From the IMG/VR virus record IMGVR_UViG_3300043395_003089, positions 1 to 64,000 of that record: a DNA stretch of 64,000 nucleotides. One strand, written 5' to 3'. Of the stretch, positions 22,789-61,685 are shown piece after piece; position 1 is the stretch's first letter; every line of letters begins with the position of its first letter. This DNA comes from a virus. The position numbers and the translations under genes are program-made. The notes under the pieces are model-generated. The model was not told where the DNA came from, made no database searches, and worked only from the letters and a program-made list of their open reading frames with translations.

Positions 22789-23248
22789 AACGAGATCTGC
22801 TGGACGTCGTTCACTTGCCAGTGGCCTCTCGTCACGATGGCTGCCTTGTTCGGGAGGGCGTGATGGGAGCAACGTTCGGCGTCTACGGGCACTGCACCGT
22901 GCGAAAGCCACCAACAATGAACCAGTGGCGTCCTTCAAGGGCGAGCGACATCACGTGGCAGCAGGCTGAGGCGAAACACCCGGAGTGTCTCGTTGCATGG
23001 GATCAACTCTGTCTCCGATTCATGGGTAAGTGGGAGATCCGAACGATGTACGAGAGCGCAGGGCTCTGCTTGGTCATCGGCGTCGCGGCGCTGGAGTCGG
23101 CGGAGTGGGCGTTCTTCAGTTACGAGCCGATCTCGCAGGAGTGGCTTGAGTCGCCCCGAAGGTCTCGATCTCCCAGGTCCTCGGCAAGCGGTTCAACGCC
23201 GAACTTCGAGGAGCCTTAGCTGGCAGAGCAGCGAGCTACCGTCACGCG

Positions 23249-23920
23249 ATGAACGAAATCGCTTGTCTCGATCATGGGTTCGTCGCGCTTGTAGACGTCA
23301 TGGGCAACGACCGTACGCCCGCGCAGTGCGCGCGTACGTCGTTCCGCAACGCGCAACAAGAACGCACCGAGGAACAAGACGCCAAGTTGACCGACTACCT
23401 CGTACGGCATCGACACACGACGCCCATCGAGTTTTGTCAGGTTCGGTTCTACATGAAGATGCCGATCTTCGTCGCGCGTCAGCTCGTACGGCACCGCACC
23501 GCGAGCATCAACGAAGTCTCGTATCGCTACGTGCAGGCGGCGCGCGAATTCTACGTGCCGGCGCCCGAGCGATGCCAGCGCAAGGCCGAGACGAACAAGC
23601 AGGGCTCATCGAGCGAGATCGTCGAGCGCCCGGATCTCGTGAGGCGCATGATCGAGAACGCGGGCAATCGCGCCTTCGATGACTACGAGCAGCTCCTCGC
23701 GTATGGACTCGCTCCCGAGCTGGCGCGTACGGTCTTGCCGTGCGGCACGTACACCGAGTGGTACTGGCAGAACGATCTCCACAACACGCTGCACATGCTC
23801 GGGCTACGTCTCGATGCGCATGCGCAGTACGAGATCCGCGTGTTCGCCGAGGCGATGCTCGCGCTACTTCGCCCGGTGTTCCCGACGATCCTCGGGGCAT
23901 GGGAGCGCGCCAGGACGTAG
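23249..23920 (+). CDS. thyX: flavin-dependent thymidylate synthase
   Basis: HTTPIE, RQLVRHRTASINEVSYRY, HAQYEIR. Confidence 0.96.
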   Translation: MNEIACLDHGFVALVDVMGNDRTPAQCARTSFRNAQQERTEEQDAKLTDYLVRHRHTTPIEFCQVRFYMKMPIFVARQLVRHRTASINEVSYRYVQAAREFYVPAPERCQRKAETNKQGSSSEIVERPDLVRRMIENAGNRAFDDYEQLLAYGLAPELARTVLPCGTYTEWYWQNDLHNTLHMLGLRLDAHAQYEIRVFAEAMLALLRPVFPTILGAWERART

Positions 23921-23950
23921 CTGTCAGACCAGCGAGCTAAGGTCGCCTGC

Positions 23951-24436
23951 ATGGGTTCAGACGACGCTTTCAGCTTCAAGTCCGGGTCACCGAACACGCC
24001 AGAGCCAGCGCCCAAGCCGAGCGAGTACACGCCGGCCTGGCCAAAGGTGATCAACATGGTCATCCGCGGGTTCACGAATCCGCAGGCGCCCGCCGATATC
24101 CACGAGATCGCCGGGCTCGTCGTCGCCGATATGCGCGAACGCGACGAACAAGGCGCTAAGAAATACGGTGTGCACCTACAAGCTGGCAACGGGCGGCGGC
24201 ATCTCGTCGACGCCTACCAAGAGGCGCTCGACAAGACCGTCTACTTGCAGGCCTGGATCGACGAGCACATCGCGATCGAGCAGTGGCTCGCCGTGGAGCG
24301 TGGCGAAATTGACGAAGCGAAGGCCCGAACGACTTTCAGCCGACTCCAACTAGAAGTTGTCGAGATGTTCGGTACCTCGGTACTCGATTGCCTCAAGCTG
24401 CGCTCGATGATCAAGCTCGAAGCCGAGACCAAGTAG
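23951..24436 (+). CDS. phage protein, possibly all-alpha NTP pyrophosphatase-like
   Basis: RDEQGAKKYG ... DAYQEALD..VYL motif. Confidence 0.5.
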   Translation: MGSDDAFSFKSGSPNTPEPAPKPSEYTPAWPKVINMVIRGFTNPQAPADIHEIAGLVVADMRERDEQGAKKYGVHLQAGNGRRHLVDAYQEALDKTVYLQAWIDEHIAIEQWLAVERGEIDEAKARTTFSRLQLEVVEMFGTSVLDCLKLRSMIKLEAETK

Positions 24437-24438
24437 AC

Positions 24439-26202
24439 ATGCAGCTCACCGATGAACAACTCGCGATCGTTGACGCCGGGCGTGGCAAAGACGACATCTT
24501 GATCGAAGCCGTTGCAGGCTCGGGCAAGACCAGCGCTTTGCTCGCGACGCTCGACGTCATGCCGCAACGCTCGATCTTGGTGACCGCGTACAACGCGCGG
24601 ATCGCCGACGAGTTGGTCAAGCGAGCGCCGAGGGCCAAGCGCGGCTCGGCGATCCACATCAAGACGTTTCACGCCGTCGGGCGCCAGATCGTGCTCAAAC
24701 ATTTTCCAGGAGCACAATTTGATCGTAGCGGCACCGACGAGATCATCGCGGCGGCTGCTGGCGAAGCCAGCCTCGCATATCCGCTGCGCCGCGCCGCCGT
24801 ACGATTGCTCCAACGCTACAAAGAGACGATGGGCGCCGATACGCTCGTTGTCGCCGAGCCCGAGGAGCTGCTCGAACTAGGCCACAACTACGATCTGTTC
24901 GGCAAGCTCACGGCCGCGCAGGTTGATCATGTGGTCGATGTCGCGGCGCGTGGCTACGAGCTCAGCTTCCATCCCGAAACCTTCAACAAGCTCGATTTCT
25001 GCGACATGCTGTGGTTGCCGATGGCGCTCAACCTCGCGCCGCCGTCGCGCTATCAGGCGATCGTCGTCGACGAGTGGCAGGACATCAACATCCCGCAGTT
25101 GGAGCTGATCCGCCGGCTCTGTCTGCCGTCGACGCGGCTGATCATGGCCGGCGACGGACACCAAGCGATCAACGCTTGGCGTGGCGCCGTCGCGGGCGTC
25201 GTGCGCCAGTTGATGTGCGACGAGCGCAAGGCGAAGGTCATGACGCTCACGATCTCGTTCCGTTGCAGCAAGGCCGTGATCGACGCTGCGCGAGCGCTCG
25301 TGCCCGAAGTCCGGGCGTTGCCCGACGCGCTCGAAGGCTCGGTCACGACTGTCGGCCTGCGCGACGTGCCACGCATGATCATCGCGCGGCCGAGCGACGA
25401 GATCCACACGTTCGTGTTGTCGCGCAACAACGCCGCGCTACTCGACACGGCGCTCTTGCTCTGGCGCGAGGGCGTGCGCTTTCAGCTCAATGCAGGTCAG
25501 GAGATGCTCGCGCCGCTGTTCGAGTTGCTCGACAAGTTGGATCTGCGTACGCCCGATCTGTTTCGCAAGTCGCTCAAGAAATGGCACGCCGAGGCGCTGG
25601 AGAAAGCCGAGACCGCGGGCTCGATCGAGCAGATCGAACGCGTCAACGAGCAACACTCGATGCTGCACTCGGCGGTGAGCTACGTCGCGCCGACGGGGCT
25701 TCGCAAGCTCCTCAACACGATCTTGGAAGTTGGCAAGACCGGTGTGCTGCTCTCGACCGTGCACAAGGTCAAGGGCCTCGAAGCCGATCGCGTGTTCTTG
25801 CTCAAGCAGACGTTCAATCGTCACAAGGCTGTGCCAGTGTGGCAGCGCGTTGGTGGTGACGAGCACGGCGACGAGCGGATCGATTACATCAAGGTCGGCG
25901 TGTTCAAAGCCGGTGACGACAGCGACGAGGCGAACATCGAATACGTCGCGATCACGCGCGCGAAGGAGCACTTGATCTGGGTCAACATGCCCGAGCGCGA
26001 GCACGAGGAGCTGCCCGCCGAGCCGCTGATCCCACAGATGCTCGCGTCGCTGACCGATGCGCAGCTCGCCGAGGAATTCGAGAAAGCGGAGGGCGAGTTG
26101 ATGCGCTACTCCTCGATGGGCGAGCAAGACAAGGCCGATCATTGGGCGAAGTACGCCAAGCTGATCGCAGCCGAACAATCCAAGCAGGAACGCGCACGAT
26201 GA
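24439..26202 (+). CDS. UvrD/Rep-like SF1 helicase
   Basis: AVAGSGKT, VVDEWQD, GDGHQAI, SFRCS, STVHKVKGLE, YVAITRAK. Confidence 0.92.
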   Translation: MQLTDEQLAIVDAGRGKDDILIEAVAGSGKTSALLATLDVMPQRSILVTAYNARIADELVKRAPRAKRGSAIHIKTFHAVGRQIVLKHFPGAQFDRSGTDEIIAAAAGEASLAYPLRRAAVRLLQRYKETMGADTLVVAEPEELLELGHNYDLFGKLTAAQVDHVVDVAARGYELSFHPETFNKLDFCDMLWLPMALNLAPPSRYQAIVVDEWQDINIPQLELIRRLCLPSTRLIMAGDGHQAINAWRGAVAGVVRQLMCDERKAKVMTLTISFRCSKAVIDAARALVPEVRALPDALEGSVTTVGLRDVPRMIIARPSDEIHTFVLSRNNAALLDTALLLWREGVRFQLNAGQEMLAPLFELLDKLDLRTPDLFRKSLKKWHAEALEKAETAGSIEQIERVNEQHSMLHSAVSYVAPTGLRKLLNTILEVGKTGVLLSTVHKVKGLEADRVFLLKQTFNRHKAVPVWQRVGGDEHGDERIDYIKVGVFKAGDDSDEANIEYVAITRAKEHLIWVNMPEREHEELPAEPLIPQMLASLTDAQLAEEFEKAEGELMRYSSMGEQDKADHWAKYAKLIAAEQSKQERAR

Positions 26203-26505
26203 GCAATCGCTACAAAGTCTGGCCGGCGCTTCCCGATGGCTCTCGCGACAGCGAACGCATCTTGCTGCGCACGGGCCTATCGAAAGACGCCCCCGACTTC
26301 GGCGAGAACGACATCGAAGACTTTTTCGGCTCGCTCGTCGAGCTGGCGCAGCTCGCGCGCGAGACGCGCGGCTACGTCGGGCGCGTGTACATCAGGCAGT
26401 TTTTCCCGGGCGAGATCACCACCAAGAGCTGGATCGTCGAGGCCGACGATACCGTTATCGAGGGCTGGCACTGACTGTCAGACCAGTGAGGTAGCGTAGG
26501 TCTCG

Positions 26506-27173
26506 ATGAAGACCAGCTATCAGATCGCACCGCGAGCGGCGTCAACCTGTTCGACAATGATCGCGGCGTGACCTGTATCGATCTGACGACGTTGCCGATC
26601 ATCAATCGCAAGATGGTCAAGAGCGTCGCGCTGAAAGACGCCGCGTCGATCGCGTGGAAGCTTCAGTACGCGCGGGCCTATCAGAAGGTCTACAAGGACT
26701 ACGTCAAGAACAAGTTCCCCGGCCTGACCGAGCACAACGGGTTCTCGCCGCCTCGAACGCAGGCCGAGGCCGTGAGAAGCTCGCGGGCTACATCATGGGC
26801 AAGGAGCTCGAATTCAAGATCAAGGGCTACTCGTCTGCCGCCAGTCTCGAAGGTCATCGAGAAAGTGAAAGCCAAGGGCAAGCTCAACGGGCCCGAGACG
26901 CTCATGGCCGAGGCGATCTTTGAAGTCGAGTCGTTCCTGAGCGCCAACCCGGCGAAGCTGCACCATGACTGGCTCGTCGGCAAAGAGAAGATGAACGGCG
27001 CGACCGTGCGCGGCCTAGCCTATCAGCTCTCGCAGATCGTGTTCTCGATCATCGTCGGTCAGACGTGGTTCAGCGATTGCCCGACGCCCGACGACAACAC
27101 GGTCACGCACAAGACGCAGCACGGCGACGTCGTGATCGCGGCCGAGCTGCGCGAGATCGAGATCAAGCTGTAG
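26506..27173 (+). pseudogene. degenerate gene with frameshifts
   Basis: The ATG after the 23-bp motif is out of frame with the gene body; an internal ~20-codon segment reads protein-like only in another frame (EKLAGYIMGKELEFKIKGYSS). Confidence 0.55.
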
Positions 27174-27205
27174 CTGGCAGACCAGCGAGCTAAGGTCGTT
27201 GCGCG

Positions 27206-28009
27206 ATGGCAAAGACCTGGTGTTCTGTTTGCGGCGAGCGGCAGTTTCACGTTCCTGACAACGAGCTGCCAACGTGCGCGAATGGTCACGGCGGCGCTCC
27301 CGGCCTCGATCAAAGTGAAGCGCAAGCGCTGGGCTACGACACGTCCAAGCGCTTGCGCCGGATCATTCGAGTGCCGCGCGCCGAGGTGCACAAGCGACCG
27401 ACGATCGCGAAGCGCTCGCAGGACGAACGCGATCTGTCCGATGCAACGTGCACGCCGAAGTGGCTCGCGGATTTTCTCTACAAGGCCCGAGGCAATCGGC
27501 CGTTCGATCTCGACCCGTGCAGCAACGAACGCTCGCACATCATCGCGCATTGGTCATTCTCGCTAGAGAAGAAGCTCGACGGGCTCAAGCTTCCGTGGCG
27601 CGGTGAAGTCTTCAAGAACAACCCGTTCTCGGCGCCGATGCTGTGGCAAGAGAAAGCCGTCTACGAGCTGACGCTCGGTCGTTGCACCGAGCTCGTCGAG
27701 CTGTGCAAGATGGATCCGAGCACCGAGTGGTGGGGCGTTATCGCGCAGCCGATCGTTGCCGGTGGCGCGGATTGGAGCCATCGCGAGATCGTCTACACGC
27801 CGGACTTGTGGCTGTTCCGCGATCGCATCCAATACGACGAGCACCCGCTGTTGATCGAGAAACGCCGCTGCGAGATCGCCGAGGGCAAGCGCAAGGGCAA
27901 CAAGAGCGGCAAGAGCTCGAACAACTTCTGCTCGGCGCTGATCCATCATCGGTTCGACAAGCCGCGCTTGCCGCTCGAAGAATTCGCCGACCTGTGGATC
28001 AGGCCGTAG
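27206..28009 (+). CDS. phage Dam-like DNA N6-adenine methyltransferase
   Basis: TPKWL..FDLDPC..VFKNNPFS..DPSTEWW; motif IV reads NNPF rather than NPPY/F. Confidence 0.7.
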   Translation: MAKTWCSVCGERQFHVPDNELPTCANGHGGAPGLDQSEAQALGYDTSKRLRRIIRVPRAEVHKRPTIAKRSQDERDLSDATCTPKWLADFLYKARGNRPFDLDPCSNERSHIIAHWSFSLEKKLDGLKLPWRGEVFKNNPFSAPMLWQEKAVYELTLGRCTELVELCKMDPSTEWWGVIAQPIVAGGADWSHREIVYTPDLWLFRDRIQYDEHPLLIEKRRCEIAEGKRKGNKSGKSSNNFCSALIHHRFDKPRLPLEEFADLWIRP

Positions 28010-28067
28010 CTATCAGCCTGGCGCACCACCACTTGACGTCGGATTTCTCTTGTGGGAGCTTTGGGGC

Positions 28068-28160
28068 ATGGCGAAAAAGCACTGCAAGTTTGGCAAGGTC
28101 TCTCGTGGTCGTCGCAAGGGCCAGTGCCGAAAGTCGCGCAAGACGCGACGCAAGCGCTAG
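28068..28160 (+). CDS. 30-aa protamine-like basic peptide (not in ORF track)
   Basis: MAKKHCKFGKVSRGRRKGQCRKSRKTRRKR. Confidence 0.6.
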   Translation: MAKKHCKFGKVSRGRRKGQCRKSRKTRRKR

Positions 28161-28211
28161 TCGATCGCTTTCTCGAAGCGGGCTATGATGTCCGCTAGTG
28201 GAGGCTGATCA

Positions 28212-28544
28212 ATGTACGCGCTGAGATCCTACGAACAGACCGCGGTGTATGACCCCACGAATCCCGATCAACGGATTCGTGAAGGCTACGCCAGCGACCC
28301 GGGGCGCTGGACTTCCTACTACTGGAACCCAGTGGACACGGGTGCGCAGTTGCGCGGCTCGGGTCTCGGGATCTCGTGGTCGTCGCTCGGCTCGACGGCG
28401 CAGATCGGCGTGATCGCGGTTGTCGGCGCGCTCGCCGGCTACTTCACGTGGAAGCAGTGGGGCGACAAGCTCCGTCCGACCATGAAAAAGATCCCGATCA
28501 TCGGCTCGCAATTCGCCGGCTACAAGCGGCGGGGGCGGCGCTGA
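28212..28544 (+). CDS. small membrane protein with basic tail (putative virion)
   Basis: GGAGG SD; TM IGVIAVVGALAGYFTW; LRGSGLG motif. Confidence 0.7.
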   Translation: MYALRSYEQTAVYDPTNPDQRIREGYASDPGRWTSYYWNPVDTGAQLRGSGLGISWSSLGSTAQIGVIAVVGALAGYFTWKQWGDKLRPTMKKIPIIGSQFAGYKRRGRR

Positions 28545-28865
28545 CCGATGGCTCGCGTATCTGGTCGAACGATTCGAGCCATCCCATCGTTCAAGGCATT
28601 TTGCGCGTCCGTACACTCGACCAAGGCAGCGCGAACGCGCTGCGTCCGTCAATTGATGGACAGCGCCGAGACCAAGGCAGAGATGCGAGGCCTAGGGGCT
28701 CCGGGCTGCGTCGAGACGGTGAAGACGATCACCAAGCGTGACGGTAAAAAGGTCACGTTCCGTACGCGCGTTGGTGATGATTGCCCCAAAAGGATGCGGC
28801 CATCCACGCAGCATCTTCGGCCGTGGCAGTACAAATCGCAGGGTCGGCGCTGACCGATGGCTCGC
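28536..28865 (+). repeat. 21-bp direct repeat CGGCGCTGACCGATGGCTCGC flanking one gene
   Basis: Exact copies at 28536-28556 and 28845-28865. Confidence 0.85.
28548..28853 (+). CDS. basic Cys-containing protein (putative core protein)
   Basis: Arg/Lys-rich; MRGLG motif; C-terminal half resembles 62728-62988. Confidence 0.65.
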   Translation: MARVSGRTIRAIPSFKAFCASVHSTKAARTRCVRQLMDSAETKAEMRGLGAPGCVETVKTITKRDGKKVTFRTRVGDDCPKRMRPSTQHLRPWQYKSQGRR

Positions 28866-29105
28866 ACCGTCACCAGCGAGAACGCGCGGATCAACCGGCG
28901 CTGCGAAACAGCGCTGAAGGCCTTGAGCCCGCGCGAGTGCGACGCCCGAGCGGCGCTGCGCGCGAGCAACGCATGCGCCCACGTTCAATGGGGCACGCGG
29001 CTCGACAAGCACGCCAAGCGCGTGCTCAAGCGGCACGGGACATCATGCCCGGCGTTGCGCTTCGATGGATTCCACGGAACCCGCCGACGTCGGCGCCGTC
29101 GGTGA
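28857..29105 (+). CDS. basic protein with poly-Arg C-terminus
   Basis: Ends FDGFHGTRRRRRRR. Confidence 0.65.
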   Translation: MARTVTSENARINRRCETALKALSPRECDARAALRASNACAHVQWGTRLDKHAKRVLKRHGTSCPALRFDGFHGTRRRRRRR

Positions 29106-29117
29106 TAGGCTAGGGCC

Positions 29118-29360
29118 ATGCCCGCGTTGATGTCATTGGAAGGCCCCCGGGTCACGCACCTGGACGAGATCCGCAATCAGCTCTACGCCGCAACACCGCG
29201 GAGCTGGTGGCGAGCACAGGCCTCGCTCAAGGGCTTCACCGAGCCGTTCATCGCGCACCCGGTGTGGCTGCTTCTTGGCATCTTCGGCGGCATGTGGCTC
29301 GCGGGCAGCAAGACGGGGCAGACGTTGATCGCGAAGGCGAAGTACAAGCCCGGGTCTTAG
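29118..29360 (+). CDS. small membrane protein
   Basis: TM PVWLLLGIFGGMWLA; TGATAGGCT box 6 nt upstream. Confidence 0.65.
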   Translation: MPALMSLEGPRVTHLDEIRNQLYAATPRSWWRAQASLKGFTEPFIAHPVWLLLGIFGGMWLAGSKTGQTLIAKAKYKPGS

Positions 29361-29505
29361 TCGTTGCCGTTCGAGCTCGCGTCTCGCTTGCACGATGGCG
29401 CGGATGAGCAGCGCGGCGCGATCTGGTTGGTTGGGCATGCTCGGGTTCTAGTCGGGAGCCGATCGGGAGGGCAAGCGGGAGCGATCTCGGTGTAGGCTAG
29501 ACCGC

Positions 29506-29823
29506 ATGGCCAAGCGGATCGACGATAGCCACCAGCCGTACAAGCGCACGCGCAAGCTCGGGCCCGGCCCCGATCGGAGCCCGCCCAAGCTTCAGGCGCG
29601 CGACTGGGAGTGTCATCGCGGGAAGCGGCCCTACGAGCAGATCTGCGTGTGGGTCGGCGAGGGCAAGCGCTCGAACACCACGAACCGGATGAATCGCGCG
29701 AAGAAAAAGCGCTACAACAAGCGCTATCGCGCGTGGGCGAAGACGCATCGCGCGGCGCTGCGCAACAAGGGCCGGATCGGCACGTATCGTTGCCACAAGA
29801 CCAAGCAGACGAGGTGCAAATGA
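29506..29823 (+). CDS. highly basic protein
   Basis: Arg/Lys-rich, with Cys/Trp. Confidence 0.6.
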   Translation: MAKRIDDSHQPYKRTRKLGPGPDRSPPKLQARDWECHRGKRPYEQICVWVGEGKRSNTTNRMNRAKKKRYNKRYRAWAKTHRAALRNKGRIGTYRCHKTKQTRCK

Positions 29824-29950
29824 GCGTATCGGGCAACAGCCGAGTCGTGCCGATCCGAGAGCGCGAGATCTTGGTGCTGCCGATCATAGACGCGACGCCG
29901 CCCGAGATGTATCGCCGGCTCGAAACTGACTTGCGGAAGGCGCTCAAGCG

Positions 29951-30121
29951 ATGAGCAAGCATCGCGTTGGACGCCCCAAGCGCACGAAGGCCGCGCGAGC
30001 TTGCCTCGCGCAGCGGATCCGCAAGCACTGTCGCAAAAAGAATTGCGAGCGGATCGAGCCCCGACGGCAAGCGATCGCGATCGCGTTCAGCCAGTGCCGG
30101 CGGCTTGGCTTCAAGGTCTGA
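29951..30121 (+). CDS. 56-aa basic protein (not in ORF track)
   Basis: MSKHRVGRPKRTKAARACLAQRIRKHCRKKNCERIEPRRQAIAIAFSQCRRLGFKV. Confidence 0.55.
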   Translation: MSKHRVGRPKRTKAARACLAQRIRKHCRKKNCERIEPRRQAIAIAFSQCRRLGFKV

Positions 30122-30232
30122 CTAAAACGTAGCCTTAGCAGCCTCGTCCAGATGGCAAGCATCCTTGCGTGTCTTGAGCTGCTTGAGTGTTTCGGTGTTG
30201 AGCGAGAGCTTGGTGTTCTTGATTTTCTTCAT
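30122..30232 (-). CDS. 36-aa RiPP-leader-like peptide without a modifiable core (not in ORF track)
   Basis: MKKIKNTKLSLNTETLKQLKTRKDACHLDEAAKATF; AAGGA SD upstream; matches the leader at 3382. Confidence 0.65.
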   Translation of the reverse strand: MKKIKNTKLSLNTETLKQLKTRKDACHLDEAAKATF

Positions 30233-30286
30233 CGACGCATTCCTTGGTTGGTTGTTTCATCAAGCCACGGCAGGTGCCGTAGGGCA

Positions 30287-30589
30287 TCAAGTAGCGTAAC
30301 CCAGCTCGTAGAGTAATCGCATGAGGATGTCGCCATGACAGGCAAGCGGCGCGCAGTAGCAAGCAAGCGGCTTGTCACCGTCGACGAGCTCAGGGAGCGC
30401 GGCCATGAGCTGAGGCGAGCTACGAAGCCACGGCTCGTAGGCTTGAATCGCGAGCGCGCGATTGAGAACTTTGAAGCGCGCGATCGTTGATGGCAGATGC
30501 GAGTACGGGTTACCCCACTTCGACGGTCGGCCGATATAGACGTACTGATCCGGCCGCAGTCGAGTCGTGTTGAGATTGATCAGCCGCAT
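30287..30589 (-). CDS. DUF4326-like protein
   Basis: YIGRPSKWGNPY ... LACYCAPLACHGDIL. Confidence 0.85.
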   Translation of the reverse strand: MRLINLNTTRLRPDQYVYIGRPSKWGNPYSHLPSTIARFKVLNRALAIQAYEPWLRSSPQLMAALPELVDGDKPLACYCAPLACHGDILMRLLYELGYAT

Positions 30590-30742
30590 CGCGCTTCCGG
30601 CCAGCCGAGCAATCGCCGCACGCGGCGTTGACGCTCTTGTGCCTCTTGCTCGACACGCGCGATCTCCAGGCGGCACCAGACGCAACCGCACGTCGGTGAC
30701 ACAGGATGATGGTCGTGTTTCTTCATGCCGCTCGTGCTCCTA

Positions 30743-31246
30743 TCACAACTCCTCGTCGAATTCTTCCTCGTCTTCGTCGTCGTGCATGCCGTGGAGCAGT
30801 GCCCGCATCTTGATCAACTCGGCTGCGCCCATCTCGCGTGGGTCATCCCAGAATTCGAGGATCGAGTACGAGACCACGTCGGGCGTCTTGCCGTTGGTCG
30901 ACGTCGGGAACAGCGGATCGAGCATCTCGCCCGCGAACTTGGCATTGACAGCCGACTCGCGCTCGCGCTCGTCGCGGATCTTGCGACGTAAGTCCGTCGT
31001 CGCGCGGCGCCTGGCCTCACGCGCGAGCTTGCGGCTCGACCGTGCCTGTCTGTAGTCGTAGACCAGCGCAGTCAGCCGGTTGTGGATCGGTTCGAGCGCC
31101 TTGAAGAATGCATCACGCTGTTGTTCACAGACATCGAGAACAGCTTGAGCGTCCTCGCGAGTCATGCGATACGCGACCGGCCACATGGTGTCGAGTGCCT
31201 CGGCAACGTACGTGTGGCGTCCAACGACGCAGTAGAGCGCGGGCAT
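30743..31246 (-). CDS. hypothetical protein with acidic tail
   Basis: Start set by the 23-bp motif at 31257-31279. Confidence 0.55.
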   Translation of the reverse strand: MPALYCVVGRHTYVAEALDTMWPVAYRMTREDAQAVLDVCEQQRDAFFKALEPIHNRLTALVYDYRQARSSRKLAREARRRATTDLRRKIRDERERESAVNAKFAGEMLDPLFPTSTNGKTPDVVSYSILEFWDDPREMGAAELIKMRALLHGMHDDEDEEEFDEEL

Positions 31247-31316
31247 CTCGACAGGGAGTCTAGCTCGCTGCTCTGACAGCAACGTTGGCAGCTCAGCGAG
31301 GTAGACTGGCTACGAC

Positions 31317-31574
31317 ATGAAACTACGCGAGCCCGAACCACTGCCGCACTTGCGCGACTGCCGAGCCGAGCCGTTACCGCTCGCGCGCTCGCATCCGCGC
31401 ACGATCTTGCCGCGTTGGGGTCGGCGCTTTTTCGCGTTCGTCGACAAGACACTCGCGCGGCGTGACGCCCCGTTGTCGTTGCTCTGCGCGTTGCTGCTCG
31501 GCCTCGTATTCGTCGTGATCCCGACGGTGTTCGCGCTGTGGATCTGGCGTGGAGATTATCGTGTCGAGACGTAG
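31317..31574 (+). CDS. small membrane protein
   Basis: Long hydrophobic segment; preceded by the 23-bp motif. Confidence 0.5.
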   Translation: MKLREPEPLPHLRDCRAEPLPLARSHPRTILPRWGRRFFAFVDKTLARRDAPLSLLCALLLGLVFVVIPTVFALWIWRGDYRVET

Positions 31575-31775
31575 ACGACGATGCGTCGGTTGCGGCGCGC
31601 TCTTTCTGATGCCGCGCGACCCGAGTCGCTACAACGATAGCTGCATGCGCTGCATGGGCTACACGGTGAAGACGCTCTTGCAACTACGCACGCTTCAGAG
31701 CCCGGCGCGCTACAACCGACAGTGCGAGGCCTGCACGCCGCGAGGAAGAACACTCAACGAGCGCCACGAGCTCGA

Positions 31776-34655
31776 CTAGCGTGGGCGCGCGTAGTCGGCC
31801 GTGAGCGTCGCGTGAACATCGCCGGGCCGCGCGTCGTCGTAGAAAGGCACCGGTCGCATGGCGCCCTTCACGGGCACGTGCTGGCCATCCATCGTCTCGA
31901 CCCAAGCGGTTCCCTGTTGCTTCCACTTGCGGCGCCACGCCTCGGCCTCGGGCAACGTCAGCGCCCGCGGGGCGTCGACGATCTTGCGGACGCTAACGAT
32001 CTTGCCGTCGCGGCGCGTGACGAGGTTGTAGGCGACGCGATAGCCGGTGGTGGAGCCCATGCCGGCATTCTTGCGCGCTGCTCTGCCACGAAGGCCGAAC
32101 AGATGGTGCTTGCTGAGTGTGTGGTGAGCAGCGGCGAAGCGTCGATCCGTCGAAGGCGATTGCTCGAAGTCTCGAAGGAGCTTGCGTGCATCATCGAGCG
32201 ACGCCGAACGCGGCAACGTACGGAGCAGCTTCGAGACCTGCCATGCGCCCATTGCGGCGACGCGGCGAGCTTCTTCCTCGGTATCAGCCGTGCCGAACGG
32301 GATCAGCGGCTTGGTCCATTCGCCGTTGCGAATGTGCGGCACGCTCGCGATCTCGTCGCGTTCAAGCCCCCATGCGAGGAGTAGCTCGGGTTCCCACTGG
32401 CCTGGATTTTTTGGATCCTCGTGAACGTCCCACCAGACGTTGTAGACATTGTTGGAGCCGTCCTGTGGATAGATTCTCACGGCGCCCGAGTCGGCGTGGT
32501 CATGATTCATCGTCGTCAGTACCGAGATCGGGATCTCGTTCTGCTCGGCGAAGTCTTCGGCGATGTCTAGCGCCTCGGGTCCTTCGTTGTTGATCAGCCG
32601 ACGAAACATGTTGCGCTGGTTCCTGAGATCCTCGTCGTCGAGCTCGAAGTACGTTACGTTCTCGTTCATGCGCCCCGCAGCCATCGCCTCTTCGCGGGTC
32701 GCGTAGCGCGACGTCTTGATCTTGCGGGCGCCGAGCCCGAACAGCTCGGGCTGCTCCTTCAAGTGATCGCGCGCGGAGTCGCGATAGATCGCGTCGACGA
32801 CACGTTGACGATAGGCTCCCTCGGTCAGATTTTTCCCGCGGTACAGCTTCAACTCGTTGGCGACTTCCCAAGCCTCGGCGCCGACGATCTGTTCGAGCTC
32901 GCGAAGCGACTTGGCTCGACGAGGGTAGCCAGCGCCGATGTGTAGCGGCTTGTTGTCAAGCAATGTATTCCACTCGACATCGTAGAGTTGTTTGCCGTCG
33001 ACGCTCCTCCCCGGGAGACGGGTGATCGTCCAACTCACGCGTGTCGCCGGATCGTCTGGGGCTCCAACCGGGCTCAAGTAAAGCGTACGCAGCTCGCCGA
33101 TCTTGATTCCGTGCTCTAGCGCGTAGTCGGTCGCAGCAACCAACTCGGCCGGCGTCTGCGCGGTCTGAGTGAGCATCTTGAAAGTCTCGGTCGGAAACTC
33201 GTTGCGGTCCTCGCGCTCGCCACGAAGCCCGAACAGCTCCTCGGGCTCGCTGTTGTCGCGATCGAGCGTATGGAAGATATCGCGTGCTTGCGGCGTGAAG
33301 CCTTGCGCACGCAGCTTCTTCGTCTCTTTCGCGAGTGCCCATGCCTGCGCGGTCGCCGCGCGTCGGCAGTAGTCCATGTTGCCTTGGTAGTGCTCCTCGA
33401 ACTTGACGTGATCGCTCTCGCGTTCTTCGCCGCCAACGCGCGCTCCATCGATACGAACATCGAAGACGGCTTTGCACTCGCCACCGTGGCGCTCGTTCAC
33501 GCGCTTGACGCGCCACGAGACACGGTCACGCTTGAAGATGTCCTCGTTGTTGTCGAGCCAGAACGTGCCGCGGTTGTCGGTGCCGCCTTTGGACAGCTCG
33601 CTCAGCTTGATCTCGTGTTGAAGCGCGAGATCCTCGGCGGGAACAAGCGCGCCCGGATCGGGGTCAGCGATCAGCTCCTTGATCTGCTTGCTCACGCGTT
33701 GACGTTCGGCCAACGGATCTTCGCCGAGGCCGCGTTTCTGGCGCGCGACGCAACGCTTGAACGCAGCGGGTGGCATGTTGACGCTACACGTCTCGCCGAG
33801 ATCGTCGAGCCCCTTTAGCTTGTAGCCTTTCTCTCGAAGTTTTTGCACTTCCCGCAGGCGCTCCTGCCACTCGTTGTGCGACTCATGCGGATGCCAGGCG
33901 TCGACCGGCGTCGAGCGCGTTGGTGGCGGCACTGGCGGCGTATCCTGTCGGCCGAGGCCTGAGATCATCGGCAGATCGATCTTGCCTTTCTTCCACCACG
34001 AGTAGGCCAGCGCGCCACCGACGGCGCCGAGGATGCCAATCGCGAACGGGAGCCACGTCTTGGGCTGCGCAGCGTCGAGCACGAGCTTTTGCAAGCCCTG
34101 CGCGGTCACGCGCGCGGCGTCGCCGCCGAAGTGCACGCCATCGCGAGCTCGACCGACCATCGCCGTGATCGGCCGCGGATCGATGTAGCGGTTCTTGCCG
34201 AACACGCTCTGCATCATCTCGATCACGGGCAGCGCCTGTTGGGTCAGCTGATCATTGGCGTACGCGAACGGCCCGATCGCCCACACGTCGGCGCCGAGGC
34301 CCTTGTAGAAGTCGCGGATCTTCGTCATCGCCTGCTTGTCGACGTCGAGATTGAGCCCGATGTCGTTGGTGCCAAGCACGACGAAAACCTTGGTCGGCAT
34401 GAACGCTTGATCGCTGCCGAGCAAGGCCTGGAAGTTCTCGCGGCCGAAGAAATTGTGCGCGCTGCGGCCCACACGCGCGTTGACACGCACGGCCGAGGCT
34501 CCCTGTTCGAGCAGCATGCTCGCGAGCAAGTCGCCGGGCTGGCCGGACGCGCGATTCGAGCCCGTGTCAACGTCCCAGATCTCGGGCCCGGCGTCGGGGC
34601 CGTGATGGCTCAACGAATCGCCAAAAATCAAGATGCGCTGCCCGCGGACGTCCAT
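31776..34655 (-). CDS. 959-aa modular protein: SGNH/GDSL hydrolase, TM segment, three internal repeats separated by xGL(R)G motifs
   Basis: IFGDSLS, GTND, DGVH; TM WLPFAIGILGAVGGALAYSWW; repeats ending LFGLRG/LFGLG/LFGLRG. Confidence 0.8.
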   Translation of the reverse strand: MDVRGQRILIFGDSLSHHGPDAGPEIWDVDTGSNRASGQPGDLLASMLLEQGASAVRVNARVGRSAHNFFGRENFQALLGSDQAFMPTKVFVVLGTNDIGLNLDVDKQAMTKIRDFYKGLGADVWAIGPFAYANDQLTQQALPVIEMMQSVFGKNRYIDPRPITAMVGRARDGVHFGGDAARVTAQGLQKLVLDAAQPKTWLPFAIGILGAVGGALAYSWWKKGKIDLPMISGLGRQDTPPVPPPTRSTPVDAWHPHESHNEWQERLREVQKLREKGYKLKGLDDLGETCSVNMPPAAFKRCVARQKRGLGEDPLAERQRVSKQIKELIADPDPGALVPAEDLALQHEIKLSELSKGGTDNRGTFWLDNNEDIFKRDRVSWRVKRVNERHGGECKAVFDVRIDGARVGGEERESDHVKFEEHYQGNMDYCRRAATAQAWALAKETKKLRAQGFTPQARDIFHTLDRDNSEPEELFGLRGEREDRNEFPTETFKMLTQTAQTPAELVAATDYALEHGIKIGELRTLYLSPVGAPDDPATRVSWTITRLPGRSVDGKQLYDVEWNTLLDNKPLHIGAGYPRRAKSLRELEQIVGAEAWEVANELKLYRGKNLTEGAYRQRVVDAIYRDSARDHLKEQPELFGLGARKIKTSRYATREEAMAAGRMNENVTYFELDDEDLRNQRNMFRRLINNEGPEALDIAEDFAEQNEIPISVLTTMNHDHADSGAVRIYPQDGSNNVYNVWWDVHEDPKNPGQWEPELLLAWGLERDEIASVPHIRNGEWTKPLIPFGTADTEEEARRVAAMGAWQVSKLLRTLPRSASLDDARKLLRDFEQSPSTDRRFAAAHHTLSKHHLFGLRGRAARKNAGMGSTTGYRVAYNLVTRRDGKIVSVRKIVDAPRALTLPEAEAWRRKWKQQGTAWVETMDGQHVPVKGAMRPVPFYDDARPGDVHATLTADYARPR

Positions 34656-34944
34656 GCCCTACAGGCTATCACGAGCGGAAATAGGCGAGCCGGCCGGGGT
34701 TTCACCGGCTGAGGGAGGAACGCGCACCGCTACGCGCCACAATGGGGCCCTCAACAGCGATCGGGACGCGACATCGCACGATCGAGGCCTAGCCAGCGAG
34801 GGAAGTCTCTGGGGTCGGCGTTCAGCTCAGAAGTGGCGGATACGATCGAGTGCGGGGTGCGCGAGAGTCAGGTCCATTACCTGATGCTTGTCGAGAGCAT
34901 CGTGCGTGTGGGCACCACGCGGCGGATCGTGTCCGAGGCTGGTT

Positions 34945-36941: not shown

Positions 36942-36953
36942 GCTGTCAGCCTA

Positions 36954-37316
36954 TCACGGCACGCGCTTGTGCTCACCCTCGTGGTTGAGCTTGAGCCCGC
37001 AACGATGTCGGGTCTTGCACTCGCCGCAGTAGACGTGTTCGCGGCACTGATCGAGCATCCGGCCGTATTCGTCGATCGGCATCAGGTTGTGCCCGAGATG
37101 CTTGCGAAACCACGCCGGGTCGATTGACCCGTAGCACCCGCTGTAGCCCAAGCGGAAGTTGAGTTGATCGCCAAGCTCGGTGGATAGCTCGGCGAGCGCT
37201 GCGATTGCGTCAGCATGCTTGATCAAGAGCAACATGCGATCGTCTTGGTGATTCGCGTCGTCGAAGTGGTGGATCTCATCGCAATCGACGCACTTGATGT
37301 TCCAGTCCGTGCTCAT
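36954..37316 (-). CDS. Cys/His-rich hypothetical protein
   Basis: CVDC, CGEC..CGLKLNHEGEH. Confidence 0.5.
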   Translation of the reverse strand: MSTDWNIKCVDCDEIHHFDDANHQDDRMLLLIKHADAIAALAELSTELGDQLNFRLGYSGCYGSIDPAWFRKHLGHNLMPIDEYGRMLDQCREHVYCGECKTRHRCGLKLNHEGEHKRVP

Positions 37317-50604: not shown

Positions 50605-50643
50605 GGCCTGACCCTACCACAATAGGCTGACGCGTTGTCAGCC

Positions 50644-51543
50644 CTACGCGGGCGCAGGGTTCAGCCACGTCAGGAGCGTCAACGTATCGCAGCCGACGAT
50701 GCCATCGGCCGAAAGCCCATAGCAGCTCTGGACGTCTTTGATCCGCGCCTCGGTCGCTGGGCCAAAGTCTCCGTCGATAGCGAGCTTGCCCGCGCGAGCT
50801 TGGATCCATTTGACCATCTCGCCGGTCGCGCCGCGCTTCACGAGATTGATCGTGTTGGTGTCGACGGCGCCCGGCGAGAATCCGGGCATCCCGAGCGCGT
50901 CGCCCGCGTACTGGTAGATCAACCACTGGTTGCCCCACGCCGGGATGTACGTCGGATGCGCCGGCATGCCGGTGAAGCGCACGGGCTGACCAACATCCCA
51001 GAGCCACGGCTTGGCGAGCCAGAGTGGGCAGTTGATCAACTTGCCGGGCGCGTGGTTCTTGAGAACTTCATTCCATACGCGTGCACTCGTGTACATGCCG
51101 GGCCATGCGCCGTAGTACAGGCGCAACGCGATCGCGGCTTCGAGGATCCACGCGAAGTATTGATCCGACGAGAGCACATCGGATTCCTGTTCGACGTCGA
51201 AGAACGGCACCATGTTGCGCGCGGGCGAGCCGAGCACCGGAGCTTTCAGCTCGGCGCCAACGTAATCAATGAAGGCCTTGACCTGTTCTTTCGGGCTCGG
51301 AACATTCGGCGCTTTCTTCGTCGGTACGGTGATGAAGATGTAGGCGCTGCGGTTGAGCCCAGCGGCGAGGATCGTCGCCTTGTCGCGGTCCCAGTAGCTG
51401 TCTCGAATCGGCGCCGTGAAGCCACCGAAGATCGCGCGCGGGATGATGAGGCGTGTACCGACGGCCTTCGCCTGCGTTAGCCCTGCGACGGTTAACGCTT
51501 TGATCGTGTCGGTGTTCGCGTAATCGACGCCGAATTGGGTCAT
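50644..51543 (-). CDS. endolysin: GH25-like muramidase plus C-terminal peptidoglycan-binding domain
   Basis: FGVDY, FFDVE, GMYTS, PLWLA, YQY; DGDFGPATE..GLSADGIVG. Confidence 0.85.
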   Translation of the reverse strand: MTQFGVDYANTDTIKALTVAGLTQAKAVGTRLIIPRAIFGGFTAPIRDSYWDRDKATILAAGLNRSAYIFITVPTKKAPNVPSPKEQVKAFIDYVGAELKAPVLGSPARNMVPFFDVEQESDVLSSDQYFAWILEAAIALRLYYGAWPGMYTSARVWNEVLKNHAPGKLINCPLWLAKPWLWDVGQPVRFTGMPAHPTYIPAWGNQWLIYQYAGDALGMPGFSPGAVDTNTINLVKRGATGEMVKWIQARAGKLAIDGDFGPATEARIKDVQSCYGLSADGIVGCDTLTLLTWLNPAPA

Positions 51544-51872: not shown

Positions 51873-51897
51873 GCTGTCAGCCTACCACGTAGATACG

Positions 51898-55718: not shown

Positions 55719-55748
55719 GCAGCGGACGCTACCACGCTGCTCTGCCAG

Positions 55749-57467: not shown

Positions 57468-57477
57468 CGCTTAGCTC

Positions 57478-61643: not shown

Positions 61644-61685
61644 GTTGCTTTGACCCTACCACAACAGCCGGGCTATCTTGCTTGT

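What the first reader, a model, noticed from the sequence alone, without database searches (positions are those of the whole stretch)
28068..30121. Cluster of protamine-like and small membrane proteins resembling a viral core kit
Seen: seven or more tiny ORFs, either very Arg/Lys-rich with Cys or single-TM with basic tails. Several carry the same Gly motif (LRGS/G, MRGL/G, FDGFHG before poly-Arg, FAG before KRRGRR). Established: adenovirus condenses DNA with protease-processed basic core proteins (pVII, mu), whereas tailed phages normally do not. Inference: DNA-condensing core proteins that are matured by cleavage.
Basis: inference. Interest (0 to 1): 0.72.

Follow-up and report, generated by a model that had tools for sequence, protein, structure and literature searches.

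The report
Conserved small basic and membrane protein module
A 2-kb run of eight tiny genes in an uncultured 89-kb bacterial virus is a real gene module, conserved across related viruses, that encodes very basic cysteine-bearing proteins and membrane proteins with poly-arginine tails; they may coat and anchor the viral DNA inside the particle, but this has not been shown.

Summary
Eight small + strand ORFs (28068-30121) have coding-type GC3. Five are extremely basic (net +16 to +26; four Cys each, two in the 30-aa one). Two are single-pass membrane proteins. Five of the eight have homologues in metagenomes, and gene order is conserved in relatives (77-126 kb viral contigs, two with terminal repeats).

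The 110-aa protein founds a family of at least 51 clusters. It has an N-terminal beta domain, a flexible linker with a near-invariant Leu-x-Gly, a TM helix, and often a second Leu-x-Gly followed by RRRRR.

The 105-aa protein has four invariant Cys and an invariant non-basic N-terminus, so it is a specific conserved protein rather than a loose protamine.

No Pfam, PHROG, PDB or BFVD match explains any of them.

No terminase, A32-type ATPase or adenain was found. A membrane-anchored transglutaminase-like Cys protease co-occurs with the module. Leu-x-Gly-Leu-(x)-Gly motifs are about 3-fold enriched in the proteome. A leaderless-type promoter motif links two of these genes to the virus's membrane-protein and protease genes.

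Best reading (about 0.4): internal virion proteins that bind DNA and anchor it to a membrane, some trimmed at Leu-x-Gly. Virion location, DNA condensation and cleavage are all inferred. Earlier notes of this scan concern this same genome only.

The parts
28068..28160 (+). s30: 30-aa protein, 16 of 30 residues K/R, two conserved Cys (CKFG...RKGxC)
   Evidence: GC3 0.74. Homologues lie directly upstream of the s110 homologue in L004, L005 and L006. A GGAG-type ribosome-binding site is conserved upstream in all four.
28212..28544 (+). s110: single-pass membrane protein. N-terminal 3-stranded beta domain, linker with LRGSG, TM helix, tail ending YKRRGRR
   Evidence: 51 representative clusters at E<=1e-3. 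Alignments A3/A8 show P15, P18, Q20, L47, G49 near-invariant. AF2 pLDDT 75.7: strands 6-41, low-confidence linker 42-58, helix 61-91. No Foldseek, PDB, Pfam or PHROG match. Ribosome-binding site conserved in five of six loci.
28521..28556 (.). First copy of a 36-nt direct repeat spanning the s110 stop / s101 start junction
   Evidence: the repeat finder family D1, 86% identical to the second copy, spacing 309 nt.
28548..28853 (+). s101: basic 4-Cys protein. N-terminal 45 residues, then MRGLG, then a domain paralogous to the 62728-62988 protein
   Evidence: GC3 0.67. Residues 51-94 align with residues 2-48 of the 86-aa protein, E 8e-5, starting right after MRGLG. Bracketed by the direct repeat. 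No homologue found in the related loci.
28830..28865 (.). Second copy of the 36-nt direct repeat spanning the s101 stop / s82 start junction
28857..29105 (+). s82: basic 4-Cys protein ending FDGFHGTRRRRRRR
   Evidence: GC3 0.81. No homologue found in the related loci.
29102..29111 (+). Promoter-like motif GTGATAGGCT, 6 nt before the s80 start codon (extended -10 type, leaderless)
   Evidence: Pattern GTGRTAGSST: 8 matches in the window against 0.33 expected. All lie 6-10 nt before ORF starts. The motif is conserved before the s80 homologue in L005.
29118..29360 (+). s80: single-pass membrane protein (MSLEGP... HP-TM-GGxWLAGSKTGQ)
   Evidence: GC3 0.88. Seven database entries incl. the window's own at E<=0.01 (six homologues), plus L005, L006, L009.
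29490..29498 (+). Variant promoter-like motif GTGTAGGCT, 7 nt before the s105 start codon
   Evidence: TGnTA(G/C)GCT-type elements sit 6-7 nt before the start in L007, L008 and L009 as well.
29506..29823 (+). s105: 105-aa protein, net +26, four invariant Cys, invariant N-terminus RIDDSHxPxKR...GPGP
   Evidence: GC3 0.88. Homologues at 46-81% identity and in 8 IMG/VR loci. Alignment A7. AF2 pLDDT 58.8: three strands 34-61 plus helix 64-86. No PDB, Pfam or PHROG match.
29820..29954 (+). s44: 44-aa, not basic; start overlaps the s105 stop and stop overlaps the s56 start (ATGA)
   Evidence: GC3 0.80. Overlaps read from the sequence. No homologue found.
29951..30121 (+). s56: 56-aa protein, net +17, 4 Cys; its C-terminus weakly resembles Pfam DUF6496
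   Evidence: GC3 0.79. L007 homologue E 6e-12 with all four Cys kept and an N-terminal extension ending LAGLG. PF20106 scores 19.2 bits, below its cut-off of 24.

Best explanation
The stretch is a conserved module of an uncultured clade of large, high-GC bacterial viruses in which no terminase or other packaging ATPase was found. It encodes two single-pass membrane proteins with basic tails (s110, s80) and five very basic, Cys-bearing small proteins (s30, s101, s82, s105, s56).

Proposed role: they are internal virion components. The soluble basic proteins bind the genome and neutralise its charge. The membrane proteins hold the DNA against a viral membrane through their arginine tails. Some members are probably trimmed at exposed Leu-x-Gly sites by the virus's own membrane-anchored transglutaminase-like cysteine protease, which would release N-terminal pieces or short arginine peptides.

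Shown: the genes, their conservation, composition, predicted topology, motifs and promoter motif.

Inferred: DNA binding (from charge, and from one relative's weak winged-helix match), virion location, condensation and cleavage.
For: 1. The genes are real and conserved.
- GC3 is 0.67-0.88.
- The s110 family has 51 clusters.
- Gene order Dam-like -> s30 -> s110 -> (variable basic genes) -> s80 -> s105 -> s56 is kept, in part or whole, in L004, L005, L006, L007 and L009.
- In distant G403 and G404, the s110 homologue is again followed by small basic 2-Cys proteins with poly-R tails.

2. There are links to morphogenesis-type genes.
- In L008 and L010, s105 sits inside the block homologous to this genome's 65-84 kb region. 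That region holds the protease, many small TM proteins and conserved beta-rich proteins.
- In L006 the module is followed on the same strand by beta-rich proteins and a fibre homologue.
- The paralogue p86 lies next to the spike genes.

3. The module shares a promoter motif with other genes. GTG(A/G)TAG(G/C)(G/C)T, 6-9 nt before the start codon, precedes s80 and (as a variant) s105. It also precedes the 959-aa membrane esterase, the protease and several TM-protein genes. There are 8 matches in the window against 0.33 expected, and 17 promoter-plus-ORF pairs against 3 in reversed sequence.

4. The Leu-x-Gly motifs look functional.
- [LMIF]xGL(x)G occurs 14 times against 4.5+-2.1 in residue shuffles, and [LMI]xGxG 45 times against 22.8.
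- L47/G49 are near-invariant and lie in a low-confidence linker.
- Homology of s101 to p86 begins right after MRGLG, and the L007 s56 homologue carries an extension ending LAGLG.
- The protease has L-x-G right after its own TM helix in three genomes.

5. LxG-x-R(4-7) C-termini recur in unrelated proteins of the clade.

6. The protease co-occurs with s110 in all four large genomes that have s110.

7. No TerL (two Pfam families, five genomes, two of them with terminal repeats), A32 ATPase, portal or HK97 capsid hit appeared among the proteins scanned. A virus without a packaging motor would need another way to compact its DNA. The archaeal virus SPV1 does this with a VP1-DNA nucleoprotein core under a membrane (PMC8459092).
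Against: - There are no proteomic, expression or biochemical data. No RNA run holds the stretch.
- In the closest relatives the module follows the replication genes (PolA, UvrD, Dam-like), where non-structural DNA-binding proteins are also common.
- s30 and s110 lack the shared promoter motif and use ordinary ribosome-binding sites.
- s105 is too well conserved at non-basic positions for a generic condensing protein.
- The Cys spacings are not CxxC zinc knuckles, so the role of the Cys residues is unknown.
- The protease specificity is unknown, and no adenain-type enzyme exists.
- Residue shuffles ignore local Gly-rich composition, so the motif enrichment may be overstated.
- Topology is a problem. 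By the positive-inside rule the arginine tails face the cytoplasm. In a PRD1-like vesicle budded inward from the cell membrane (PMC6356626), that face would point to the capsid, not to the DNA.
- The tailless, membrane-containing architecture itself rests on absence of hits and on earlier AI notes that I did not re-test by structure.
Confidence: 0.4

Rival explanations
1. The proteins are non-structural DNA-binding proteins of the replication or middle gene block. The basic Cys proteins would be regulators, nucleoid-associated or replication-accessory factors acting on viral or host DNA inside the cell. The two membrane proteins would serve an unrelated role such as superinfection exclusion or anchoring replication to the membrane.
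For: - The module directly follows PolA, ThyX, UvrD and the Dam-like methylase on the same strand here and in L004, L006, L007 and L009.
- s105 has specific invariant non-basic residues and a partly folded model.
- A variable basic gene in L006 weakly matches a winged-helix regulator domain (AbiEi_4, E 9e-5, below cut-off).
- s30 and s110 use ordinary ribosome-binding sites rather than the shared promoter motif.
Against: - s105 moves into the protease and membrane-protein block in L008 and L010, and in L005 the module follows sugar-modifying enzymes, so the link to replication genes is not fixed.
- s80 and s105 share a promoter motif with the membrane-protein and protease genes.
- LxG motifs and poly-R tails are shared with many predicted membrane proteins of the same viruses.
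- Five or more extremely basic proteins is many for a set of regulators.
Confidence: 0.3
2. The two membrane proteins form a lysis or membrane-remodelling cassette as holin- or antiholin-like proteins with charged C-terminal tails, and the basic proteins are unrelated passengers.
For: s110 and s80 are small, have a single TM helix and carry basic C-termini, as many holins do.
Against: - There is no holin hit in Pfam or PHROGs.
- The endolysin-like gene is 20 kb away on the other strand.
- No lysin lies next to the module in any relative.
- The N-terminal domain of s110 is highly conserved across 51 clusters, unlike typical holins.
Confidence: 0.05
3. The small basic proteins are ribosome-associated proteins. 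They would be viral analogues of tiny basic ribosomal proteins that bias translation toward the virus's leaderless mRNAs.
For: - s30 has the size and composition of the smallest ribosomal proteins.
- The virus appears to use many leaderless-type promoters.
Against: There is no match to any ribosomal protein family in Pfam. The idea rests on composition alone.
Confidence: 0.05
4. Some of the ORFs (s101, s82, s44) are not genes but chance open frames in GC-rich DNA.
For: - No homologue was found for them in the related loci.
- s101 has the lowest GC3 of the set (0.67).
Against: - GC3 is still above that of the other frames.
- Starts and stops are tightly coupled to neighbouring conserved genes.
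- s101 has an in-genome paralogue (E 8e-5).
- Relatives carry different small basic genes in the same slot.
- This rival does not apply to s30, s110, s80, s105 or s56.
Confidence: 0.1

Closest known systems
Adenovirus core and maturation system: pVII, pre-mu, pVI with its C-terminal pVIc peptide, and the protease AVP (PMC4246237, PMC7998265)
   Same: - Both have several small, very basic proteins.
- Some motifs here fit AVP's (M/I/L)XGX-G or (M/I/L)XGG-X consensus: LRGSG and MRGLG, and IVGG before the tail in s110 relatives.
- A short basic C-terminal peptive lies beyond a Gly-containing site, as pVIc (GVQSLKRRRCF) does at the end of pVI.
   Different: - No adenain (Pfam C5) or Ulp1-like (C48) gene was found. 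The candidate protease has a transglutaminase-like Cys-His-Asp fold and is membrane-anchored.
- There is no sequence similarity to any adenoviral family.
- The conserved core of the motif here is only Leu-x-Gly.
- The host is a bacterium.
- Cleavage and virion location are unproven.
Portogloboviridae (Sulfolobus polyhedral virus 1): VP1-DNA nucleoprotein core under an inner membrane and a single jelly-roll shell (PMC8459092)
   Same: A membrane-containing particle whose DNA is compacted by a small protein rather than, as far as is known, pumped in by a motor. That logic would explain why this clade has many basic proteins and no recognisable packaging ATPase.
   Different: - SPV1 infects archaea and has a 20-kb circular genome and one nucleocapsid protein.
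- Here there are 77-126 kb genomes, five or more different basic proteins, and membrane proteins with poly-R tails.
- The jelly-roll capsid claim comes from earlier AI notes that I did not re-test.
Protamine-like or basic DNA-condensing proteins of large eukaryotic dsDNA viruses (baculovirus P6.9, ascovirus P64, chlorella virus basic proteins; PMC6163548, PMC6669607, PMC3281028)
   Same: Small (under 15 kDa), arginine- and lysine-rich proteins encoded by large dsDNA viruses, some of which have internal membranes.
   Different: - Those proteins are mostly low-complexity.
- s105, s56 and s30 have conserved Cys patterns and conserved non-basic residues.
- No homology was found.
- None is known from bacterial viruses.
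Small internal-membrane proteins of membrane-containing phages (PRD1, PM2 and relatives; PMC6356626)
   Same: Clusters of small single-pass membrane proteins encoded by a virus that seems to lack tailed-phage hallmark genes.
   Different: - PRD1 packages DNA with the ATPase P9. The review does not use the terms 'condens', 'DNA-binding' or 'histone-like' at all.
- There is no similarity to s110 or s80.
- Poly-R tails preceded by Leu-x-Gly are not a described feature of those phages, to my knowledge.
Pfam DUF6496 (PF20106), small basic bacterial proteins of unknown function
   Same: The C-terminal 23 residues of s56 align with the end of the model (E 0.0015).
   Different: - The score of 19.2 bits is below the 24-bit cut-off.
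- The L007 homologue gives no hit.
- The family has no known function, so a match would explain nothing.

Membership tests
Adenovirus-type core/maturation system | Adenain (MEROPS C5) or related clan CE protease encoded by the virus | tested here: not met
   PF00770 and PF02902 were searched six-frame in the 89-kb genome with no match at E<=1. The only protease-like gene is transglutaminase-like (PF01841, E 4.6e-5).
Adenovirus-type core/maturation system | Precursors carry (M/I/L)XGX-G or (M/I/L)XGG-X sites at conserved positions | tested here: inconclusive
   LRGSG (s110) and MRGLG (s101) fit. 22 of 36 s110-family members have an XGX-G site and 18 of 36 an XGG site. The motif is enriched 2-3 fold in the proteome. 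Only Leu-x-Gly is near-invariant. FDGFHG and FAG do not fit.
Adenovirus-type core/maturation system | Sequence homology to pVII, pre-mu, V or pVI | tested here: not met
   No Pfam family at E<=1 other than noise.
Adenovirus-type core/maturation system | Proteins are present in virions bound to DNA and are cut during maturation | not testable with these tools
   Needs particles and mass spectrometry.
Portogloboviridae-like nucleoprotein core | Abundant nucleocapsid protein wrapping the genome; no packaging ATPase | tested here: inconclusive
   No A32, Terminase_6N or TerL_ATPase hit was found in this genome or four relatives, and no such hit among about 50 proteins scanned. Absence of hits is weak evidence. 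VP1 similarity was not tested.
Holins | Match to a holin family and adjacency to an endolysin | tested here: not met
   No holin family in Pfam or PHROGs. The endolysin-like gene is at 50644-51543 on the other strand.
Zinc-ribbon / zinc-knuckle DNA-binding proteins | Paired CxxC or CxxH knuckles | tested here: not met
   Read from the sequences. Cys spacings are C-x10-C...C-x7-C (s105), C-x8-C-x4-C-x16-C (s56) and C-x11-C-x11-C-x23-C (s82). There is no CxxC pair. Metal binding or disulfides both remain possible.
Pfam DUF6496 (PF20106) | Score above the gathering cut-off of 24 bits | tested here: not met
   19.2 bits for s56. No hit for the L007 homologue.
Tailed phages (Caudoviricetes) | Terminase large subunit, portal and HK97-fold capsid protein | tested here: not met
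   PHROG 'terminase' hits fall only on intein segments. There are no TerL Pfam hits in five clade genomes, including two with terminal repeats. Portal and capsid families were not searched one by one. The tail-spike-like N-terminal segments at 55749-59262 are the only tail-type signal.

The most novel reading that the evidence does not exclude
A lineage of large (77-126 kb) bacterial viruses builds particles without a DNA-packaging motor. The genome would be co-condensed by a set of small basic Cys proteins and pinned to a viral membrane by arginine-tailed membrane proteins. These precursors would be matured at Leu-x-Gly sites by a membrane-anchored transglutaminase-like cysteine protease. This would be a bacterial, convergent counterpart of the adenovirus core-maturation system and of the SPV1 nucleoprotein core.
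Probability: 0.2. Interest if true: 0.85.

Novelty: new variant of a known kind. Interest (0 to 1): 0.62.

Why it matters
Bacterial dsDNA viruses are thought to compact their genomes by motor-driven packaging into preformed shells. Protein-mediated condensation with a proteolytically matured core is known from eukaryotic viruses (adenovirus, baculovirus, giant viruses) and from one archaeal family.

A bacterial clade with such a core would add a third way of building a bacterial virion. It would also give a new protease-and-recognition-motif pair (Leu-x-Gly with a transglutaminase-like enzyme).

Even if the structural reading is wrong, several results stand:
- New conserved protein families (s110 with at least 51 clusters, s105, s80, s30, s56) that mark an unstudied viral clade found in freshwater and activated sludge.
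- A recurrent 'Leu-x-Gly plus poly-Arg' C-terminal tag.
- A leaderless-type promoter motif that defines a regulon.

Tried and rejected
The 4.7-kb, 29-kb and 80-kb contigs that carry close homologues could therefore not be fetched.

**Searches that found no relatives**
- Single-protein scans of IMG/VR with s110, s105, the Dam-like protein and P0055 found nothing. Alignment A3 was too diverse to seed a scan.
- Megablast of 23000-32000, and tblastn of s105, s110 and the capsid candidate, against cultured phages gave no match.
- The s105 profile was not found in 401 genomes sampled from the phylum of the Polyangiales MAG that carries contig L005.

**Family, fold and literature searches**
- Pfam and PHROGs on all eight ORFs gave only noise. 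PHROGs on 37 s110-family members gave scattered single hits to unnamed families. Pfam on ten small proteins of relatives gave one sub-threshold winged-helix hit.
- The ESM Atlas gave no usable hit for s105.
- Foldseek of the s110 model against BFVD and PDB gave nothing at E<=0.001. PDB profile searches for s105, s110 and the 264-aa capsid candidate gave nothing. The s105 model was too uncertain (pLDDT 58.8) to search by fold.
- Literature searches found no description of this clade.

**Sequencing runs**
- No RNA holder is listed.
- Contigs from an activated-sludge study are identical to the window where they cover it, so they gave no variants for a selection test.

**Other**
- The simple sigma-70 and terminator scans gave nothing above chance.
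- A six-frame in-genome tblastn without composition correction was mostly low-complexity noise.
Full report
**1. What is there**

The + strand between 28068 and 30121 holds eight short ORFs, back to back.
- s30: 28068-28160.
- s110: 28212-28544.
- s101: 28548-28853.
- s82: 28857-29105.
- s80: 29118-29360.
- s105: 29506-29823.
- s44: 29820-29954.
- s56: 29951-30121.

In a 62% GC genome, third-position GC in these frames is 0.67-0.88 and the other frames are near 0.5-0.6. The long antisense ORF 29357-30070 has the non-coding pattern.

Five proteins are extremely basic: net +16, +17, +16, +26 and +17 for s30, s101, s82, s105 and s56. Each has exactly four Cys, except s30 with two. s110 and s80 each have one hydrophobic helix.

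s105, s44 and s56 are joined by overlapping ATGA stop/start codons. Five of the genome's eight strongly basic small proteins fall within these eight consecutive genes (permutation p about 0.001).

**2. The virus**

The window is the first 64 kb of an 89,167-bp IMG/VR virus record.

Upstream on the same strand lie replication genes:
- an SNF2 helicase with an intein;
- a PD-(D/E)XK nuclease;
- a Sak4-like protein;
- a UDG-PolA fusion with inteins;
- ThyX;
- a UvrD-like helicase;
- a Dam-like methylase.

Downstream on the other strand lie a DUF4326 protein, a 959-aa GDSL-type membrane protein, an integrase, an endolysin-like protein and two proteins with tail-spike-like N-terminal segments.

I found no terminase, portal, HK97 capsid or A32-type ATPase:
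- None appeared among about 50 proteins scanned.
- The PHROG 'terminase' hits fall only on intein parts.
- Two TerL Pfam families gave nothing in this genome or in four relatives, two of which have direct terminal repeats and so are probably complete.

Earlier notes of this scan on the same genome read the virus as tailless, membrane-containing and jelly-roll-based. I confirm only the absence of tailed-phage hallmarks and the abundance of small TM proteins. I did not test the capsid fold.

The same sequence occurs, identical where covered, in an independent activated-sludge study.

**3. Conservation**

- **s110.** Close homologues are P0002 (75% identity) and metagenome contig L004 (47%). A profile found 51 representative clusters at E<=1e-3, nearly all about 100 aa.
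- **s105.** Homologues at 46-81% identity, plus eight IMG/VR loci on contigs up to 126 kb.
- **s80.** Six homologues (seven entries incl. the window's own) at E<=0.01.
- **s30.** A homologue sits immediately upstream of the s110 homologue in L004, L005 and L006.
- **s56.** One homologue in L007 (E 6e-12).

Gene order is conserved:
- L006: UvrD -> Dam-like -> s30 -> s110 -> ... -> s80 -> ... -> s105.
- L007: Dam-like -> s110 -> ... -> s105 -> ... -> s56.
- L009: Dam-like -> s110 -> ... -> s105 -> s80-like.
- L004: Dam-like -> s30 -> s110.
- L005: a contig binned in a Polyangiales MAG, with sugar-modifying enzymes -> s30 -> s110 -> a 'MARV...' protein -> s80.

The slot after s110 is variable and is always filled with other small basic proteins. 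In this genome s101 sits in that slot, bracketed by a 36-nt direct repeat over both stop/start junctions. That looks like a cassette insertion.

In the distant genomes G403 and G404, s110 lies far from s105. It is nevertheless again followed by small basic 2-Cys proteins with poly-R tails.

**4. Anatomy of the families**

*s110*:
- The N-terminal domain (consensus WEQT..FDP.NP.Q) is modelled with pLDDT about 90 as a three-stranded sheet.
- A low-confidence linker carries the near-invariant L47-x-G49, usually L-x-G-L-(R)-G.
- A TM helix spans residues 61-91.
- A short basic segment follows. In 19 of 36 members it ends with a hydrophobic-x-Gly followed by a run of K/R, for example LSGHRRRRR or LAGPRRRRRR.
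- Close relatives have IVGG before this tail.

*s105*:
- The N-terminus RIDDSHxPxKR...GPGP is invariant, as are Cys 36, 47, 96 and 104.
- There is a conserved YNKxYRxWA helix.
- The model is of modest confidence (pLDDT 58.8): three strands and a helix.
- This is a specific conserved protein rather than a low-complexity protamine.

*s80*: MSLEGP, then HP, a TM helix and GGxWLAGSKTGQ.

*s30*: CKFG...RKGxC, with both Cys conserved.

None of these matches Pfam, PHROGs, PDB sequences, PDB folds or BFVD folds. s56 scores below threshold on DUF6496.

**5. The Gly motifs**

[LMIF]xGL(x)G occurs 14 times in the predicted proteome against 4.5+-2.1 in residue shuffles (0 of 300 shuffles reach 14). [LMI]xGxG occurs 45 times against 22.8. 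GLGAP occurs three times against 0.1.

The carriers are:
- s101;
- the 959-aa protein (four sites);
- the transglutaminase-like protease (two sites);
- the proteins at 68764, 71371 and 73113;
- five others, including the integrase and four uncharacterised proteins.

Two boundaries coincide with the motif.
- s101 residues 51-94 align with residues 2-48 of the paralogue p86 (62728-62988), so homology starts right after MRGLG.
- The L007 s56 homologue has an N-terminal extension ending LAGLG, roughly at the position where the window's s56 begins.

The protease orthologues keep L-x-G just after their own TM helix. Poly-R tails preceded by x-Gly recur in unrelated proteins of relatives (ISGFRRRRRR, SLSGRRRKRRH, LAGRRKRRRR) and in this genome's 79036 protein (NLAGLRRR).

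The protease is found in all four large genomes that have s110 (G000, G402, G403, G404). It is not found in the two that have only a distant s105-like domain.

**6. Regulation**

- It occurs 8 times in the window against 0.33 expected.
- Across the genome, 17 TGnTA(G/C)(G/C)(G/C)T sites are followed 5-9 nt later by the start of an ORF of at least 28 aa with coding-type GC3. The reversed sequence gives 3.
- The motif has the form of an extended -10 element placed so that transcripts would start at or next to the AUG, that is, leaderless. This is an inference.
- It precedes s80. A one-base-shorter variant precedes s105.
- It also precedes the 959-aa protein, the protease, the 426-, 163- and 204-aa membrane proteins, and genes near the endolysin.
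- It is conserved before the s80 homologue in L005 and, as TGnTA(G/C)GCT, before s105 homologues in L007, L008 and L009.
- s30 and s110 instead have conserved GGAG-type ribosome-binding sites.

**7. Most likely mechanism**

*Shown:* a conserved module of very basic Cys proteins and tail-charged membrane proteins. It shares motifs and, in part, a promoter type with the virus's membrane-protein and protease genes. The viruses have no recognisable packaging motor.

*Inferred:*
- (a) The basic proteins bind DNA.
- (b) They and the arginine tails neutralise the genome and tether it to a viral membrane during assembly.
- (c) Exposed Leu-x-Gly sites are cut by the membrane-anchored transglutaminase-like protease.

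My estimates are about 0.7 for (a), 0.45 for virion location and 0.3 for cleavage. The combined statement stands at about 0.4.

*Caveat on topology.* By the positive-inside rule the tails face the cytoplasm. That suits recruiting cytoplasmic DNA to a membrane. In a PRD1-style inward-budded vesicle, however, that face points to the capsid. The route of membrane acquisition therefore decides whether the tails can touch packaged DNA.

**8. Rivals**

- The main rival (0.3) is a set of non-structural DNA-binding proteins at the end of the replication block.
- Holin-like (0.05) and ribosome-associated (0.05) roles have little support.
- Chance ORFs are excluded for s30, s110, s80, s105 and s56, but remain possible at a low level for s101, s82 and s44.

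**9. Comparison with known systems**

The closest in working logic are:
- the adenovirus core with AVP maturation, where cleavage is at (M/I/L)XGG-X or (M/I/L)XGX-G and pVIc is a basic C-terminal peptide (PMC4246237);
- the SPV1 nucleoprotein core (PMC8459092);
- the protamine-like proteins of large eukaryotic viruses (PMC6163548).

Membership in the adenovirus system fails on the protease and on homology. The resemblance is functional and, if real, convergent.

**10. Verdict**

- These are new protein families.
- As a system it would be a new, bacterial variant of a known kind (a protein-condensed, protease-matured viral core).

Noticed in passing
window 28521-28556 and 28830-28865: A 36-nt direct repeat (86% identical) covers the stop/start junctions on both sides of the s101 gene. 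The gene therefore looks like a cassette inserted or duplicated between s110 and s82. Relatives carry different small basic genes in the same slot.
   Followed up: partly
window 29102-29111, 34663-34672, 36948-36957, 50611-50620, 51879-51888, 55726-55735, 61653-61662, 62557-62566; more beyond the window (genome 73077, 73096, 74403, 76594, 76839, 77122, 77339): The motif GTG(A/G)TAG(G/C)(G/C)T lies 6-10 nt before start codons (8 in the window against 0.33 expected). It is probably an extended -10 promoter giving leaderless mRNAs, and it defines a regulon of membrane-protein, protease and lysis-region genes.
   Followed up: yes
window 6220-8859 (-): An 879-aa protein has an intein that splits a P-loop (GVMGAGK | TS). 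The PHROG 'terminase' hits fall only on the intein. The extein is not identified by Pfam. In L006 the homologous intein-bearing N-terminal part and a UvrD-like helicase lie in one 939-aa ORF (own 879-aa protein and own UvrD both hit it).
   Followed up: partly
window 63788-64000 (gene runs to genome 64141, - strand): A thioredoxin-like protein with a PGCEAC motif is encoded among the small membrane-protein genes. Together with the 4-Cys pattern of all the very basic small proteins, it raises the possibility of virus-directed disulfide formation.
   Followed up: no
genome 72372-73061 (-), outside the window (L002:12372-13061): A membrane-anchored transglutaminase-like Cys-His-Asp protein (PF01841, E 4.6e-5) has L-x-G motifs just after its TM helix. 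It is conserved in G402 (59% identity), G403 and G404.
   Followed up: partly
genome 76594-77969 (+), outside the window (L003:1594-2969): Four copies of GTGATAGCCT lie within 750 nt, and the N-terminus MLRSVFAPYGKIPGS is duplicated (ORFs starting at 76855 and 77355). This is a local duplication of a promoter plus gene start.
   Followed up: no
genome 67002-67796 (-) and 75968-76225 (+); L008:18336-19046 and L008:7992-8876: The peptide VGVAPGTTT recurs at the N-termini of a conserved 264-aa beta-rich protein, an 85-aa membrane protein and a membrane protein of relatives. L004 also has a homologue of the 264-aa protein directly upstream of its Dam-like gene.
   Followed up: no
L010:9981-10819: The s105 homologue of the 124-kb relative is split over two overlapping frames. 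This is a frameshift or an assembly error.
   Followed up: no
L005 (JBBSAB010000142.1, 18-kb contig binned in a Polyangiales MAG): This is the only link to a cellular genome bin. The contig carries the s30-s110-s80 module after glycosyl- and methyltransferase genes. It may be a viral contig binned by composition, or it may hint at a Myxococcota host.
   Followed up: partly
window 27200-30200: Low-coverage contigs from two runs of a 2021 activated-sludge study match this stretch with essentially no differences (one differing letter in one contig; two short unrelated matches set aside). The same virus therefore occurs outside the source freshwater sample.
   Followed up: yes
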